From assembly GCA_030324005.1 (NCBI GenBank), contig JARDVH010000121.1:9737539-9801538 (forward strand): a DNA stretch of 64,000 nucleotides, written 5' to 3'. This DNA is from Negaprion brevirostris. Its lineage: Eukaryota. Positions 3,001 through 42,300 of this stretch are shown in pieces (within the stretch, counting starts at the first letter, position 1; each line of letters opens with the position of its first letter). Position numbers: made by a program.

Positions 3001-6000
3001 CGATTTGTCTGGCACTTCAGTAAGAACACGTTTCCGCATCAATATATACTATGAAGTCCGCTAGCAGCGCAATATTTCGAAATGTATCTTCTCCTACCGT
3101 TGTTGAAATCGAAAAAAATCCCATTTGTCAGGCTTCCCATACTGCTGCCTTTGAAAAAGCGGCTGCATTTCAAAGAAATAAACTTGAGCTTTGCAATTGA
3201 TCCCACGAATCACAATTCCACAGATTTTATCTCCCATTTCATGGTATCAATTTGATTTGAATATTCAGGCGAATCTTAAACCACATGGGACATTTATCCA
3301 TATGTCTCCGTTTTCCGTTGCGTTGTTTTGGAAAACATTTAGAAAATGTATTGTTGTTTTCGAATGTTTTTGAAGCAGACTATATGCAAAACAAAAACAT
3401 GTATAGTCTCATGAATTGAACTTGACCTGCTCTTTTGCCGCATGTCACAGTTGTAGGGCTGGACTCACGTCCAAAAGCTGTGGAAGATCCAGGTAAGGAA
3501 AATAATGTTTTATTTTGAAATCCAATGGTAAACATTTCAACTTGGATCAGCGATAGTCACCTGTTTTCAATTCGTCTGATTCTCGTCGCAAATGGTGTCG
3601 ATGCAACTGAAAATAAACAGAGTGTAGAATTTGCCGAGCACGCATTACACTCTTAATGCCAGTACTTTCGGATGGAAGGGAATCCATGGGGAGTTGGCGG
3701 ATGTTCGTGCAGGGAAAGTACATATGGCGAAGTTATGTCTTAGTTCATATGACTATTCTTGCAATATAGACAGTTGATTTATTCCCGCAGCATTGGCGTC
3801 AACCGCAGAATGACATGTGAAGTTTAAAATTGTGCTGTTCAATCTGAATGTCAGTAATTGACGCGTTACAGAAAAGAAGCTGAAAGCCAAGCATGACGGT
3901 ACCTGGTTTAAAAATACATTTCCCAGCATTTCATAATCAAAGCACTTAGAAAGAAAATAGTGACAGAGGAATACTATTCAGTCAATCAATATTTTCTACT
4001 TGTAGGGGATTCAATATTGATTCTCTTAATCTTTGGCAAAATCATTTTGTCATTGAAATATAAACATGACTCAAAGCATTTCACTGATTGCTTGTATTAT
4101 GCTAGAGAAAACCATGATGATGTAACTGGTAACAATGAAGGGAATTGGTTTTATCAGTCGTTATAAATATATGACATTGTTCAGGTAATAGAGTCTGGAC
4201 CATTTCAAATCTACACCTCCGCTCACTACCCACTACTTATTCGTTGCCGCCAATTTCTTAGAGATCAAGACGTTACATTTAGCACAACCTCGCTTTCACA
4301 CAACCCCACCAGCATATCCCAGTACTGAACTTTATCCTTATTATTTGTGAGGATGATTAATATTTAGTTTCTCACAGTTAAGAAATTCGCATGTTAAATT
4401 TCAAATTGCAATAATCGAAGAGGTTCATAGCAATTAATATGTGTCCTTAAATTAATGAATTTGAGGAAAAATGATTGAGCTGACTTCCCCGAAATGTCGT
4501 GCAATTCTGTAATTATATCAAGGAAAATAATACATAAATTGTTGGGTCTAGCTGTAAAATTCAAGACGAGGCATTAGACACGATGTCTTTGATTCATCTG
4601 CAATGTTGCAGGTAAGCCCACACGATTATATGCTGCTAAACATTATTGGACTTTAGATTAGCAAGGCATTCATGCGGCGTTCCTCAATCATTCTTCCTCA
4701 AATACGTAAATCCAATGGCACATATGACGTGCGTTGAAACGCAAGTTGTAATCTAATCCAGGTCTAAACGTGTGTTTAAACTCATTTAAACGTAGATGAA
4801 AACAAGTTGTGTATCTTGGAACTTGTTTGAATTGTTGAAGCATTCTTCCTCATAGACTGATTGTTTTCAGTATAGAGAAGGCGTTCCGAGTCTGTGTTCA
4901 TGTGATTCGGTTGAGTATGGACAATTTGGCAAAGGAGCCTAGGATTAAGATCACGAAACTTTTGATATGAATGGCAGGACAGGCTGAAGAGTTCACATGT
5001 TTGTTGCTGTTCCAAATGTGCATATTCATGCCAAAGGTAGTTTGGAAATTTCGTGCAAAATACATACATTCACTTTGTCTGATTCATGTGTTCTCACTTT
5101 CGTCTTGCAGCACTGGAAAATTTCCAATAATTAGCAAATAATGCCTTTGTTGTTGAAACTCCCGGAACATAATTTCGGAATCACTCATTTTGTTTTTTTT
5201 TTAATGGAGTTATACATGGCTACTCTCCTTTGCCTGGGTTCCACAATTTTTCCAACCCCCATAACGATTGATTACGTTCTTGGGAAAGTACGTTTGACAT
5301 AAAGACCAATCTGAACCAAGCGAATATAATATAAGGGAACACATCAACCTTCTACGTGTCGTGTGTGAGCATCCATTTCCTTAATTAGTGTCCACAGTAC
5401 AGAGTTAAGCTTTTGAAATATTGAATTAATTATGCTATTGATTGTTGCATTCATAACGTGTCTCTCCAGTTCAGTGTTGATCACCGGCCAAAAACAAAAA
5501 GACAACTCACAGAAGGGAAGCAAATTTTGCGGCCCGAATTCAGGAACAATGTTAAACGGTCACCATATGACCATGGTTGCTCCCCGTCCGAGAGTGCGAG
5601 GTTACTGGCGACGAGCAAGTTTGAGAATAAGAGTGCGCCTGAATAATCTGAGCCAGCTGTCACGCTATATGCATGCTGTTGACGTAGCTTTGTAAATCAG
5701 GCCAGTCGTCCGAAAACTGAGGTAAACAAATTGGAAGAGCGGCTCGCGCTGCTGCGTCACAGCGAACAGGACCCGCTTTCGATTTGAAGCTTCGTCACTG
5801 TTTCGTCTGGGGCGGCACGTTCTGCCGTGTCTGGTTGGGTTTTCCATGACTGTTCCGGTTTCCTCCCACAGTCCGAAGGAACTGCGAGTTAGGTGCGTAG
5901 GTTATGCTAAACAAAAACTCTCTCCGTGAACATGTGCAAGCTTCTAAGCTTGGTTGCTAGGGGAATTTCGCCGAAACTCTATTGCGCTGTTCATATATGC

Positions 6001-6337
6001 CTACTTGACAAACTAATAGATAAACTTGAAATAAATTCCGCGGCTATTGATAGGGAACTGCAAGTGTTATTGTTTTGTTCCTGCGACTATTATCGAGATT
6101 CAACAGTTCTCGTGGCTCATAATTCTTTGTTCCTGTTACACCTACGGAGAATAATTTATATTGCATCGTAAAATAATCCCGAAGTTTTACATCGATGCAA
6201 TTTGCCCGACACCAGTGTCGGCAATCTGGGGAAATGGCTAACGGCCCCTTAACTGATGTATTCATCTTGAATACTGGGATTGGATCAACTGTTGAAGCTC
6301 AGACTTCAAAATGAATTGAGACTTTGGCTGTCAAACA

Positions 6338-39300: not shown

Positions 39301-42300
39301 TCGAGGCAACATGCTTCAATGATTATCTTTGTTCCATTACCATGCCAGAAGTTGTGGTGTTGGCTGATAATTGTAGGACGTTTGGCACCTTTTGAGAATT
39401 AATCGACACTGGAACTTTCAAAGCCCAAATGCAGGAAGACCTAGACAATATACCTATCTCACAATGACCACGCGCAGAATGTTACAACATACAATATGGA
39501 CATAATATAATATGAATTGGTGTTCAATGGCATTTGTAACACAGAATCCCCTATTGCCGCAATCTTCTGGTTCGCCATTATTCTTAGTCTATATCGAGCA
39601 GGCACTGAATTACAAAAATTGATCAGATCCGACGAGGAAACATTGAACACATGTCTCAGATCGTGCCAACAATCTTCAAGACACAATTTGGGAGCTGATT
39701 AGCCGCTGGAGGAGTGCAACTAACAGGACAATCTGGGACTGGAAATGAGCAAGGATGAATGCAATATGAACATGTGTTTTCGTCTGATTGAATTTTAACT
39801 CATGCTCCTGAAACAAAATTTAGAAAAATGCAAGTATCGGACACAAACGCCCGTTTAAAAATTAATGGATATTGCAAAATCTGCGTTCTTTTCCATACCT
39901 ACGCCGTGACACATGGCTTTGCAGTCTTGGTAGGTCGTAAATGATGATTCCGCAGAAAATTGTCCATCGCTGGTGAACTCCATCTGTACATGCCTACGAC
40001 TTACGCAGTTTTATTTGCTCAACATGCGGCATGGAATGTTTTTGGTACCAGTCCTCGGTTGTTCCTTTTTTGCTGCAGTGTTGGCCATCAATAGGCATGC
40101 TTTGCGTCCACTCTATGGACTTTTTGAATGATCTTGACGTTTGTTTTGGGACATGAATAACAAACTAAAATAATGCAATCGCACATCTGCTTGTAACTAC
40201 TCAAAGGATAATTGCAGGGTGCTGGCGGCAATTATGATTAATTTGCACTGCCTCCCCTCAAAATAAATAAATACCTACTCGGCTGTCGTTCCCAGAAATG
40301 ACAAGACAGCATGGATTTAAATTTACTCAAGCTGAGACGTATCCAAATTATGTTGTCCTAACTCCGCTGAAACTGAAGATTGTGTCATTCATACAAACGT
40401 TTGTTGTGTTTCCTAATTCTTTATTGTAAACGTTAACGAAATAAAAAGTCAAATTAAAAGATCGCGTTAATTGCGCTCGATCTTAGCATTTGACAACGAC
40501 AAGACGATGTGTGGTTTTCTTGTTTATATTTGGTAATTCCAAGCTGAATTAGCGTACGCAATTTTCGTGGCATTAATGAAAGTAACATGCAAAATGTACC
40601 AGGTTAAGGTGACGGCATGCTGACTGCTACGGCGTCTATTTGATTTATTGCTGCACTGTAATTATGTTAAATTATGTTGGTGTGACTCCAATTGTGATAA
40701 TTTACTGTAGCATTTATTGTGTGATTAGACTTTGATTTGATTTGATTGTTCGCTGTTGCAGGCGCACTTTGAAATAGGTGCCAGGCCCATTTTCATTCAC
40801 ATTACAGGGAACGTACTAAGATCGCTTTGCATATGGCGATATGGCGTACAAAGATTGCATTGTCAGCCTTTTCACCTTGATATTTATAAGCTGCAACCGA
40901 GTATCGGCATGGCTTTAATTTATTTATATTGTTGTATGTTATAAAATAACACCACGCAATGCACATATTAGTACACGAGAAAATGCTGAAGGTCAGTGGA
41001 CTTTGGAGTATATATCTGCAGACAATTGAACGGGACAACACAGTTAAATAATGTGGTTAATTTGGTAAATGTAATACATGTATTTATTAACCGAGGCATA
41101 GAACATGAGGACAAAGATTGCGTGCTGGAATAGTATAAACCAATTGTGAACCGACACCTAAAGTACGGCGTGCAGGATTTTTTAGTGGCCACGTGTTTAA
41201 TGGGGCGACGTGATGTAATTGAAGATGCAAAGTAAATTCAACAGCAACTCATCCTTGCGAAGATTTGCAATTATTGTGATAAAACAAATGAGCTAGGACT
41301 GTTTCGGCAGGAAAAAGAACAGTTGAAGGTGGGACTTGATATAGTTGTGTCGGAATATGAGTGGCATTGATACCATGTGTAGAAATGCATTTGAATCACT
41401 CGTACTGAGTGAAATGAACAGGGTAAGAGAATGAAGTTGAGGAATAAAAACATAACTGACTAGTTGAGGTGCAAATAATTGATTCAGAGAGTTCTGGGAA
41501 TCTGTAACCACTGGCTGATAGTTTGGATGAGTCAAAATCTGTTGTAACGTTTATGTGTTTAGATATGATTCATGCTGCCATAAATTGCAGTGCTATGGAC
41601 CGATCACTGGGAATTTTGTACGTTTAATGAGATATTTGGTGTCCTGCTAAAATATTTTGGCAGAATGATTTTCTGTCTTTTTAACTTCATTGAACATGAT
41701 GCAAAGAGCATGGTATCCAGGATTAATTCGCCCGACTCCGCTTGTCATCACAACATAATATATGTTTAGTGTCAATGCATTTCTTGGCTTTAAAAGCAGG
41801 AACACAATCATTTTTAAAAACACAAAAACAAAAAAAAAAGAGCAAAAGAACGAAGCTTTCAACTGTCTTCAATTCCCCAACATTTTATCGTATGGCGCGT
41901 TATATACATGGCTAATTTGAAGTTCACCAATTGTGACCAGTAGTCAATCATGGATAGACTGTTTTTTCAACTTCTTGGAACATGGTCGCTATTTCACGTA
42001 CAATCACAAGCATACCCCTCTTTCCCGACATTCCTCAAACAAATTCACCTTGAGAAAACTAAGCTTCGATACATCCAATGTTCTGTAAAGGGTGATATGG
42101 ACTCGAAGCGCCAGATACTTTTTTCTCTCCTTACAGATGCTACAAGACTTGCTGACATTTTCCTGCATTTTTCCCTTTTAGGTTCACGTTACAGCATCTG
42201 CAAACAATCGTTTTTATGCACTGTAATACAATTTATTCATGCAGTATGGCACCCCTTAACAACTACGTCTGTGATGAAACCTTTAGCCCATCCTACAGCC

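What the first reader, a model, noticed from the sequence alone, without database searches (positions are those of the whole stretch)
5686..40991. Birth and death of exons: copies switched off by single splice-site changes
Seen: 16222-16257 is followed by GGaagt and 27599-27634 by ATgagg, although both keep good acceptors and the most consensus-like peptides. Copies at 5686-5721 and 12660-12686 contain stops and a broken site. Because every exon is a phase-1 multiple of three, skipping any of them keeps the frame. Inference: length and heptad register of the coiled coil can vary among alleles, species or isoforms. The alternative is that the whole locus is a decaying pseudogene.
[Added by the scan's program, not by the reader: the finding's places include an assembly gap (unread letters, written N; its length is only estimated) at 18070 to 18399, 21330 to 21980, 26468 to 26489, 29407 to 29424, 31938 to 32037, 37863 to 37872. 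Whether the letters on both sides are continuous or in frame is not known: test that first.]
Basis: partly seen in the sequence, partly recalled or inferred. Interest (0 to 1): 0.65.

Follow-up and report, generated by a model that had tools for sequence, protein, structure and literature searches.

The report
Repeated mini-exon pairs, some switched off
This stretch holds part of a gene built from many copies of two tiny exons that together encode a 21-residue leucine-zipper-like unit, and a few copies have lost a splice signal, which is an ordinary kind of exon turnover.

Summary
The core observation holds. 16222-16257 and 27599-27634 are well-conserved 36-nt phase-1 exons with good acceptors, and they are followed by GG and AT where relatives have GT. 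They belong to family A, which has 9 copies of 36 or 33 nt. Six A copies have a 27-nt family B exon (8 copies) 305-396 nt downstream. A plus B is 63 nt, or 21 residues, with Leu at positions 2, 9 and 16, which makes three heptads.

The two "copies with stops" (5686-5721, 12660-12686) are not family members; they score at background level.

Skipping any copy keeps the frame. Only skipping A and B together keeps the heptad register.

All 17 family exons are open in phase 1, and 30 of 34 splice dinucleotides are canonical although the introns no longer align. I favour exon-level birth and death in a tandem exon array. Decay of the whole gene, shifted splice sites and sequence error are not excluded.

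No assembly gap lies within 500 nt of a family exon. The kind of event is already known.

The parts
3457..3492 (+). A-family mini-exon, 36 nt, AG/GT. A second in-frame AG 6 nt upstream would give 3451-3492 (42 nt). The peptide has diverged and has no Cys.
   Evidence: (E 7e-8)
8994..9026 (+). A-family mini-exon, 33-nt subtype, AG/GT. No B partner was found downstream.
   Evidence: (E 4e-7)
16222..16257 (+). A-family mini-exon, 36 nt, with a good acceptor and an open frame. It is followed by GG where relatives have GT. No in-phase GT or GC lies before the next stop.
   Evidence: (E 3e-10)
16630..16656 (+). B-family mini-exon, 27 nt, preceded by TG where relatives have AG. An AG 3 nt inside would give the 24-nt in-frame exon 16633-16656. 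A repeat copy begins at +2 of its donor.
   Evidence: (E 1e-6)
20143..20175 (+). A-family mini-exon, 33-nt subtype, AG/GT. No significant B partner was found.
   Evidence: (E 7e-9)
27599..27634 (+). A-family mini-exon, 36 nt, with a good acceptor and an open frame. It is followed by AT where relatives have GT. The frame stays open 21 codons further, and an in-phase GCAAGT follows 27673.
   Evidence: (E 9e-10)
28018..28044 (+). B-family mini-exon, 27 nt, AG/GT. Partner of 27599-27634 (intron 383 nt).
34738..34773 (+). A-family mini-exon, 36 nt, AG/GT.
   Evidence: (E 1e-6)
35086..35112 (+). B-family mini-exon, 27 nt, AG/GT. Partner of 34738-34773 (intron 312 nt).
36228..36263 (+). A-family mini-exon, 36 nt, AG/GT. 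It is the closest relative of 16222 and 27599 (77% over the last 30 nt).
   Evidence: (E 2e-10)
36660..36686 (+). B-family mini-exon, 27 nt, AG/GT. Partner of 36228-36263 (intron 396 nt).
42439..42474 (+). A-family mini-exon, 36 nt, open frame, followed by CT where relatives have GT. This copy is not in the finding. A weak in-phase GT follows 42468. No B partner was found.
   Evidence: (E 1e-9)
44762..44797 (+). A-family mini-exon, 36 nt, AG/GT, with Ser in place of the family Cys.
   Evidence: (E 2e-8)
45103..45129 (+). B-family mini-exon, 27 nt, AG/GT. Partner of 44762-44797 (intron 305 nt).
1972..1998 (+). B-family mini-exon, 27 nt, AG/GT. No A partner was found upstream.
3872..3898 (+). 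B-family mini-exon, 27 nt, AG/GT. Partner of 3457-3492 (intron 379 nt).
56650..56676 (+). B-family mini-exon, 27 nt, AG/GT. No A partner was found. An N run lies 562 nt upstream.
6586..6612 (+). Possible further 27-nt phase-1 mini-exon with strong AG/GT sites. It resembles B mostly in its flanks, so membership is uncertain.
17520..17546 (+). Possible further 27-nt phase-1 mini-exon with strong AG/GT sites. Membership is uncertain.
50537..50589 (+). Borderline decayed A-like copy: good acceptor, in-frame stop, length change, no GT.
   Evidence: E 0.3; E 0.9
13276..13389 (+). Left arm of an inverted repeat. Its right arm is 16658-16771 (87% over 115 nt). The pair brackets the A/B unit 16222-16656.
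26221..26453 (+). Left arm of an inverted repeat. Its right arm is 27755-27929 plus 28240-28317 (73-80%). The pair brackets A exon 27599-27634. The right arm is interrupted by about 310 nt that hold B exon 28018-28044.
5686..5721 (+). Claimed decayed copy; NOT a family member. It is background-level sequence lying just 5' of a SINE-like repeat.
12660..12686 (+). Claimed decayed copy; NOT a family member. Only its acceptor-like ttttacag resembles the family.

Best explanation
The window holds an internal part of a + strand gene whose product includes a long alpha-helical, leucine-zipper-like coiled coil. The coil is built from 21-residue modules. Each module is encoded by two phase-1 mini-exons: A (36 nt, 12 residues) and B (27 nt, 9 residues), separated by an intron of about 300-400 nt. 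The array grew by repeated tandem duplication of this exon pair. That duplication is old, because the introns no longer align.

Copies are being lost one at a time. Three A copies have a non-GT donor, one B copy has a non-AG acceptor, some copies have lost their partner, and one or two are decayed beyond use. A copy without a usable splice site is most likely not recognised and is skipped. Because all copies are phase 1-1 and multiples of three, skipping keeps the reading frame. Losing A and B together also keeps the heptad register.

Shown here: the families, their pairing, the splice dinucleotides, the open frames and the Leu periodicity. Inferred: that the gene is expressed, that the damaged copies are skipped, and that the product forms a coiled coil.
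For: FAMILIES. There are 9 A copies (nhmmer E 2e-10 to 1e-6) and 8 B copies (seven at E 3e-7 to 5e-4; 36660-36686 added). All 17 are on the + strand.

PAIRING. 6 of 9 A copies have a B copy 305-396 nt downstream. The chance probability is 2e-10. All six pairs sum to 63 nt.

CONSERVATION. It stops at the splice sites. Mean pairwise identity is 0.55-0.59 in exons and 0.52-0.64 in the 10 nt on each side, against 0.26-0.37 further out. The self-comparison finds no intron similarity between units.

SPLICE SITES. 16 of 17 acceptors are AG and 14 of 17 donors are GT.

OPEN FRAMES. The phase-1 frame is open in 17 of 17 copies. Under simulated neutral drift the probability of no stop in any of the 17 is 0.086 at 10% change, 0.01 at 20% and 0.004 at 30%.

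PROTEIN-LEVEL CONSTRAINT. Position 2 is Leu in all seven 36-nt A copies and uses all four CTN codons (read). In the six 36-nt copies tabulated, strong hydrophobic residues fill positions 2 and 9 in 6 of 6 and position 12 in 5 of 6, and position 5 is Cys in 5 of 6. Position 16 is hydrophobic in 8 of 8 B copies.

LESIONS CLUSTER BY UNIT. The unit at 16222-16656 has a non-GT donor, a non-AG acceptor on the same intron, and a repeat abutting the next donor. The unit at 42439 has a non-GT donor and no detectable B.

PRECEDENT. About 10% of animal genes hold tandemly duplicated exons (PMC9013439, passages). Pseudo-exons occur within a duplicated exon array at Drosophila Gr39a (PMC2204066, passages).
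Against: - There is no expression evidence and no orthologue, and the gene is unidentified. No first or last exon or known domain was found in the window.
- Only 4 units are fully intact pairs (3457/3872, 34738/35086, 36228/36660, 44762/45103). This is a heavy load of damage for a working gene.
- pN/pS among copies is about 0.72-0.75 and hardly differs between frames.
- Reverse-strand frames are also open in 13-15 of 17 copies, so open frames alone are weak evidence in this purine-rich sequence.
- The three dead-donor copies are no more diverged than the intact ones: 0.639, 0.606 and 0.556 against 0.477-0.611. This fits either very recent loss or continued use.
- Four hits on 68 splice-dinucleotide bases with no stop in 17 short frames is also compatible with recent neutral decay of the whole locus (my estimate: P about 0.2-0.25 at about 6% change).
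Confidence: 0.5

Rival explanations
1. The whole locus is an unprocessed pseudogene, or a dead segment of a gene, decaying neutrally. On this view the broken splice sites are simply the first hits, and no copy is used any more.
For: - 4 of 34 splice dinucleotides are non-canonical.
- 5 family exons lack a partner, with no significant remnant.
- Decayed A-like copies lie at 50537-50589 and perhaps 50856-50905.
- The introns are full of retroelement and SINE-like insertions.
- pN/pS is about 0.7.
- No terminal exon or known domain was seen.
Against: - 17 of 17 copies are open in one shared frame. The probability is at most 0.01 under 20% or more neutral change.
- 30 of 34 splice dinucleotides, and about 10 nt on each side of the exons, are retained while the introns are saturated.
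- Leu at position 2 is kept through all four synonymous codons.
- All length differences are multiples of three.

These points show long constraint, but they cannot date a recent death.
Confidence: 0.25
2. The flagged copies are still used through shifted or non-canonical splice sites, so they are altered rather than switched off.
For: - An in-phase GCAAGT follows 27673 within the still-open frame, giving a 75-nt exon.
- An in-phase GT follows 42468, giving a 30-nt exon.
- An AG 3 nt inside 16630-16656 gives a 24-nt in-frame exon.
- The flagged copies are as well conserved as the intact ones.
Against: - No in-phase GT or GC exists for 16222-16257 before the stop two codons on.
- The GT after 42468 has a poor context (GTTCAG).
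- GC donors are rare (recalled, no call), and this one lacks the usual exon-end G.
- The AT...AG intern after 27634 fits no known intron class. It ends in AG, not AC.
Confidence: 0.12
3. The non-canonical dinucleotides are base errors of a draft assembly, or one haplotype of a heterozygous site. On this view the exons are normal.
For: The window is a gapped draft with 12 N runs.
Against: - Four separate splice dinucleotides are affected, all more than 1.1 kb from any gap.
- Two of the four sit on the same intron, next to a repeat insertion.
- 27599 and 42439 also differ at +3 from most relatives, which indicates real divergence rather than single miscalls.
Confidence: 0.07

Closest known systems
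Tandem exon duplication arrays with pseudo-exons (general phenomenon; example: Drosophila Gr39a)
   Same: Exons are duplicated in tandem within one gene. Individual copies are gained, diverge and are lost, and some copies lack the donor motif (PMC2204066 passages; PMC9013439 passages).
   Different: Here the duplicated unit is a pair of mini-exons (36 + 27 nt) that encodes a structural repeat. It is not a large alternative exon encoding most of a receptor. Mutually exclusive use is not indicated, and expression is unknown.
Coiled-coil stalk or neck of type II C-type lectin receptors such as CD23
   Same: Both have a heptad pattern of aliphatic residues that forms an alpha-helical coiled-coil stalk (PMC6791321 passages). 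The 21-residue period, and my recollection that CD23 stalk repeats are 21 residues each on its own exon with copy number differing between species, come from no call here.
   Different: Each 21-residue unit is split over two exons here. No lectin-domain motif was found in the window (a weak regex test with recalled motifs). No membrane segment was identified. Homology could not be tested.
Genes made of symmetric split-codon mini-exons used as cassettes (fast skeletal troponin T 5' exons; tropoelastin)
   Same: Small exons of one shared phase can be included or skipped without breaking the frame. [quoted passage not shown] The exon phases are recalled.
   Different: The peptides here are heptad-patterned with a conserved Cys. 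They are neither acidic troponin T segments nor elastin-like. The 'find' on PMC2447309 returned nothing.

Membership tests
Tandemly duplicated exon array | Several homologous exons on the same strand within one locus, bounded by splice signals | tested here: met
   9 A and 8 B copies, all on the + strand. 16 of 17 acceptors are AG and 14 of 17 donors are GT.
Tandemly duplicated exon array | Similarity confined to the exons and splice sites, not carried by a dispersed repeat | tested here: met
   Identity is 0.55-0.59 in exons against 0.26-0.37 beyond 10 nt. There is no intron similarity between units. A-B spacing is 305-396 nt in 6 of 9.
Pseudo-exon (dead copy inside a live gene) | Loss of an essential splice dinucleotide or of the reading frame in a copy | tested here: met
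   GG, AT and CT follow 16257, 27634 and 42474, and TG precedes 16630. A stop and a length change occur in 50537-50589.
Pseudo-exon (dead copy inside a live gene) | The copy is absent from transcripts while its neighbours are spliced | not testable with these tools
Alpha-helical coiled coil (heptad repeat) | Hydrophobic residues at a and d positions with 7-residue periodicity | tested here: met
   Strong hydrophobic residues fill positions 2 and 9 in 6 of 6 and position 16 in 8 of 8. Position 5 is Cys in 5 of 6 and position 12 is hydrophobic in 5 of 6. Position 19 is mixed.
Alpha-helical coiled coil (heptad repeat) | Predicted or solved helical structure over a long stretch | not tested
Single exons (9-12 residues) are below the tools' minimum length.
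C-type lectin receptor with coiled-coil stalk (CD23-like) | C-type lectin domain exons downstream of the stalk | tested here: not met
   Four recalled lectin-domain motifs gave no match in six frames of the window. This is a weak test, and the gene may extend beyond the window.
C-type lectin receptor with coiled-coil stalk (CD23-like) | Sequence homology of the stalk or other domains | not testable with these tools
Contiguous open stretches around the exons gave no Pfam family (the only row, Endothelin at E 0.12, is below its cut-off).
Unprocessed pseudogene | Stops or frameshifts in formerly coding exons | tested here: not met
   0 of 17 family exons have a stop in phase 1, and all lengths are multiples of three. 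Only the borderline copy 50537-50589 is disrupted.
Unprocessed pseudogene | No transcription or translation | not testable with these tools
   No expression data.
AT-AC intron | AT at the 5' end paired with AC at the 3' end | tested here: not met
   The intron 27635-28017 begins with ATGAGG and ends in ...ttacAG.
GC-AG intron | An in-phase GC donor with strong consensus context | tested here: inconclusive
   GCAAGT follows 27673 in phase, within the open frame, but the exon-side base is A rather than G. Its use is unknown.

The most novel reading that the evidence does not exclude
The array is a length-tunable coiled-coil stalk in which whole 21-residue modules are switched on and off without disturbing the heptad register. 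In this reading the unit at 16222-16656 was silenced at both ends of its internal intron. The inverted repeats that bracket both dead-donor A exons of the finding help loop these units out of the pre-mRNA. Stalk length would then differ between alleles or species through splice-site and repeat changes rather than through deletion.
Probability: 0.1. Interest if true: 0.55.

Novelty: new member of a known kind. Interest (0 to 1): 0.3.

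Why it matters
If the gene is live, this is a clear example of how a fibrous, repeat-built protein changes length: exon pairs are duplicated and single copies are silenced by point changes at splice sites. The module size of 21 residues is chosen so that register is kept only when both exons go together. That makes a simple prediction for transcript and cross-species data. As a phenomenon it is already well described, so the value is as an example and for correct annotation. 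Gene predictors may include or miss these 27-36 nt exons.

Tried and rejected
- Generic splice scoring with my own approximate, recalled consensus weights was too strict or too noisy to give a full gene model. It gave 8 phase-1 candidates on + against 1-3 in the controls.
- All-against-all comparison of AG...GT open candidates found no exon families beyond A and B. The remaining pairs were repeats.
- I searched for lost partners of orphan exons in the expected distance window. None was significant: P was 0.09-0.95 against random windows. I therefore do not claim the weak B-like remnant near 20608-20635.
- pN/pS among copies was uninformative.
- Rfam gave no match in the window.
- Pfam on contiguous open stretches around the exons and on the 118-nt array gave no family. 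One search failed on a frame with stops and was resent without two of the items.
- Lectin-domain motif scan: no match.
- An AT-AC reading of the intron after 27634 was rejected because the intron ends in AG.
- A frame-restoring pair of shifted sites for the intron 16258-16629 was rejected. The GT after 16261 combined with the AG before 16633 gives 64 nt, which is out of frame.
- Literature: one search for repeats 'by a separate exon' together with heptad and coiled-coil terms found 0 papers. One search failed on term length.

NOT DONE.
- The joined exon model was neither built nor searched.
- The bacterial/archaeal genome collection and the phage, plasmid and E. coli collections were not used, as they are irrelevant to this locus.
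- The closed protein searches and the metagenome and viral collections were not used, so orthologues stay unchecked.
- I do not take this contig for human. CpG observed/expected is 0.74 and the SINE-like repeats have a tRNA-like head.

Full report
WHAT WAS CHECKED FIRST: THE GAPS

The window has 12 N runs, six of them inside the finding's span. No family exon described below touches a gap.
- The nearest solid family exon, 56650-56676, lies 562 nt from a gap.
- The two flagged donors are more than 1.1 kb from any gap.
- The uncertain exon 17520-17546 is 524 nt away.

No exon spans a gap, so the question of frame across a gap does not arise for single exons. Continuity could not be tested, because the 400-nt flanks of each gap share no 14-mer in either orientation. 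Gaps may hide exons, so the number and order of units are lower bounds. I did not fill or look up any N.

THE OBSERVATION

16222-16257 is preceded by a strong acceptor and followed by GGAAGT. 27599-27634 is preceded by a good acceptor and followed by ATGAGG. 5686-5721 and 12660-12686 also read as described.

WHAT THE REPEATS ARE

Repeat finding and profile searches define two families of mini-exons, all on the + strand.

Family A has nine solid copies (nhmmer E 2e-10 to 1e-6):
- 36 nt: 3457-3492, 16222-16257, 27599-27634, 34738-34773, 36228-36263, 42439-42474, 44762-44797
- 33 nt: 8994-9026, 20143-20175

Family B has eight copies of 27 nt: 1972, 3872, 16630, 28018, 35086, 36660, 45103 and 56650. 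A ninth profile hit, at 54046, lies inside a reverse-transcriptase-like open frame. I dropped it as spurious.

Six of the nine A copies have a B copy 305-396 nt downstream. The chance probability is 2e-10. Each of the six pairs sums to 63 nt.

Similarity is confined to the exons and about 10 nt on each side. Mean pairwise identity is 0.55-0.59 in exons and 0.52-0.64 at the sites, against 0.26-0.37 further out. A self-comparison finds no intron similarity between units. A dispersed repeat would not behave like this; a set of old, duplicated exons would.

CODING EVIDENCE

- The phase-1 frame is open in 17 of 17 copies. The other two + frames are open in 2 and 11 of 17. The reverse-strand frames are open in 13-15 of 17, so in this purine-rich sequence openness alone is weak evidence.
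- Simulated neutral change gives a probability of no stop in any of the 17 of 0.086 at 10%, 0.01 at 20% and 0.004 at 30%.
- Leu at position 2 is kept in all seven 36-nt A copies through all four CTN codons (read).
- pN/pS among copies is about 0.72-0.75 and does not separate the frames.
- Read as a 21-residue unit (A is 12 residues and B is 9, each counting its split junction codon), strong hydrophobic residues occupy position 2 (6 of 6), 9 (6 of 6), 12 (5 of 6) and 16 (8 of 8). Cys occupies position 5 (5 of 6). Position 19 is mixed. This is a leucine-zipper-like heptad pattern with a 21-residue period.
- No junction codon of the six pairs is a stop.

SPLICE SIGNALS

16 of 17 acceptors are AG and 14 of 17 donors are GT. 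There are four exceptions:
- GG after 16257
- AT after 27634
- TG before 16630, also not listed

The first and last of these are the two ends of one intron, 16258-16629. In addition, a repeat copy begins at +2 of the donor after 16656. It is the inverted partner of 13276-13389 (87% over 115 nt). That unit therefore carries three lesions. This argues against base-call error and for relaxed constraint on that unit.

16222's donor region differs from its closest relative, 36228, at +2 and +6 only.

The dead-donor copies are not more diverged than the intact ones. Their mean identity to the other 36-nt copies is 0.639, 0.606 and 0.556, against 0.477-0.611. Leave-one-out profile scores put 16222 and 27599 first and second of six.

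ALTERNATIVE SITES

Reading on in frame gives different results for each copy:
- 16222 meets a stop after two codons, with no in-phase GT or GC.
- 27599 stays open for 21 codons and has an in-phase GCAAGT after 27673.
- 42439 has an in-phase but poor GT after 42468.

An AG 3 nt inside 16630-16656 would give a 24-nt in-frame exon. No combination of shifted sites restores the frame for the intron after 16257. The intron after 27634 ends in AG, so it is not an AT-AC intron.

THE TWO CLAIMED DECAYED COPIES

Against the family profiles, 5686 scores -0.3 bits, and 523 positions in the window score at least as well. 12660 scores -13.4 bits, and 25% of positions do as well. With flanks added, the figures are 129 and 1089 positions. 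Neither appears in any nhmmer list. 5686-5721 sits just 5' of a SINE-like repeat. They are not evidence for exon death.

Better candidates lie outside the finding's span:
- 50537-50589 has a good acceptor, an in-frame stop, a length change and no GT. It is borderline at E 0.3-0.9.
- The start of a 118-nt x3 tandem array at 50856-50905 shares two exact blocks with 42439: 10 nt over the acceptor and 11 nt over the CT 'donor'.

Partners of orphan exons were sought in the expected distance window, and none was significant.

INTERPRETATION

I favour exon-level birth and death in a tandem array of exon pairs that encodes a coiled-coil segment (confidence 0.5).

The register claim needs refining. Dropping A alone shifts the heptad register by 5 residues and dropping B alone by 2. 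Only A and B together are neutral. The unit at 16222-16656 is damaged so that both would be lost together. The unit at 27599 keeps an intact B.

The rivals are:
- recent decay of the whole locus (0.25). Four hits on 68 splice bases with no stops is compatible with about 6% neutral change, by my estimate.
- continued use through shifted sites (0.12)
- sequence error or heterozygosity (0.07)

WHAT COULD NOT BE DONE

- Each exon encodes 9-12 residues, below the 20-residue minimum of the Pfam and PDB tools and the 30-residue minimum of the structure and atlas tools. An exon-by-exon search was therefore impossible.
The open DNA collections hold bacteria, archaea, phages, plasmids and E. coli only. 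No orthologue was examined.
- Contiguous open stretches around the exons gave no Pfam family.
- Four recalled lectin-domain motifs gave no match.
- Rfam gave nothing.
- I do not take the contig for human.

COMPARISON WITH WHAT IS KNOWN

- Tandem exon duplication is common: about 10% of animal genes (passages of PMC9013439).
- Exon gain, loss and pseudo-exons within a duplicated exon array are described for Drosophila Gr39a (passages of PMC2204066).
- Heptad-patterned coiled-coil stalks are described for CD23 (passages of PMC6791321). That CD23 stalk repeats are 21 residues, one exon each, with copy number differing between species, is my recollection and comes from no call.
- For TNNT3 I saw only the search listing. 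A search within that paper returned nothing.
- A search for repeats 'by a separate exon' together with heptad and coiled-coil terms found 0 papers.
- I found no description of a 36+27-nt exon-pair array. My four searches were narrow, so I do not claim that none is in print.

VERDICT

The finding is a real feature, partly mis-described. It is a new example of a known kind of event, of modest interest.

Noticed in passing
13276-13389 (+) with 16658-16771 (-); 26221-26453 (+) with 27755-27929 and 28240-28317 (-): Both dead-donor A exons named in the finding are bracketed by local inverted repeats (87% over 115 nt; 73-80%). In the second pair the right arm is interrupted by about 310 nt that contain B exon 28018-28044. 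Only five short-range inverted pairs were seen in the whole window. Whether this is coincidence or promotes skipping is unknown.
   Followed up: partly
50851-51201: A tandem array of three units of about 118 nt, 65-75% alike. The start of unit 1 (50856-50905) shares two exact blocks with A copy 42439: 10 nt over the acceptor and 11 nt over the CT 'donor'. It may hold decayed sister copies of that dead exon. Pfam found nothing in its open frame.
   Followed up: partly
8994-9026 and 20143-20175: The two 33-nt A copies share a derived structure. The AG that starts the exon in the 36-nt copies appears to serve as the acceptor here, and a 1-nt length difference upstream of the Cys codon keeps the frame. 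They lie 11149 nt apart, close to the 11377 nt between 16222 and 27599. This hints at an old duplication of a larger block.
   Followed up: partly
745-930 (-), 5735-5900 (+), 45510-45700 (-), 47037-47262, 55705-55950 (+), 58688-58769: Copies of a SINE-like repeat with a tRNA-like head, 65-75% alike, in both orientations within the introns. Rfam gave no match at gathering thresholds.
   Followed up: partly
22629-22970 (+), 30734-31237 (+), 15147-15578 (-); also open frames around 29814-30688, 32141-32728 (-) and 53655-54600: Retroelement fragments sit in the introns. Pfam RVT_1 matches at E 1e-9, 2.5e-6 (below cut-off) and 0.0016 (below cut-off). They are fragmentary. I did not count or locate their breaks.
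   Followed up: partly
31520-31937 and 32308-32725, across the N run 31938-32037; 48053-48256 and 48872-49080, across the N run 48658-48757: Inverted duplications of 81% and 86% identity lie on either side of two assembly gaps. They could be a structured element or an assembly artefact.
   Followed up: no
18400-18472: A perfect (AAG)24 run directly abuts the N run 18070-18399. A microsatellite is the likely reason for that gap.
   Followed up: no
9382-9510 and 10769-10897 (also 9534-9595 and 10847-10909): A recent local duplication (86-91% identity, 1.39 kb apart) lies in the intron after A copy 8994-9026, at about the place where a B partner would be expected.
   Followed up: no
28957-28995: A possible 39-nt phase-1 exon with a strong GTAAGT donor but a weak acceptor. 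It encodes a charged peptide and is unrelated to families A and B. The status is unknown.
   Followed up: no
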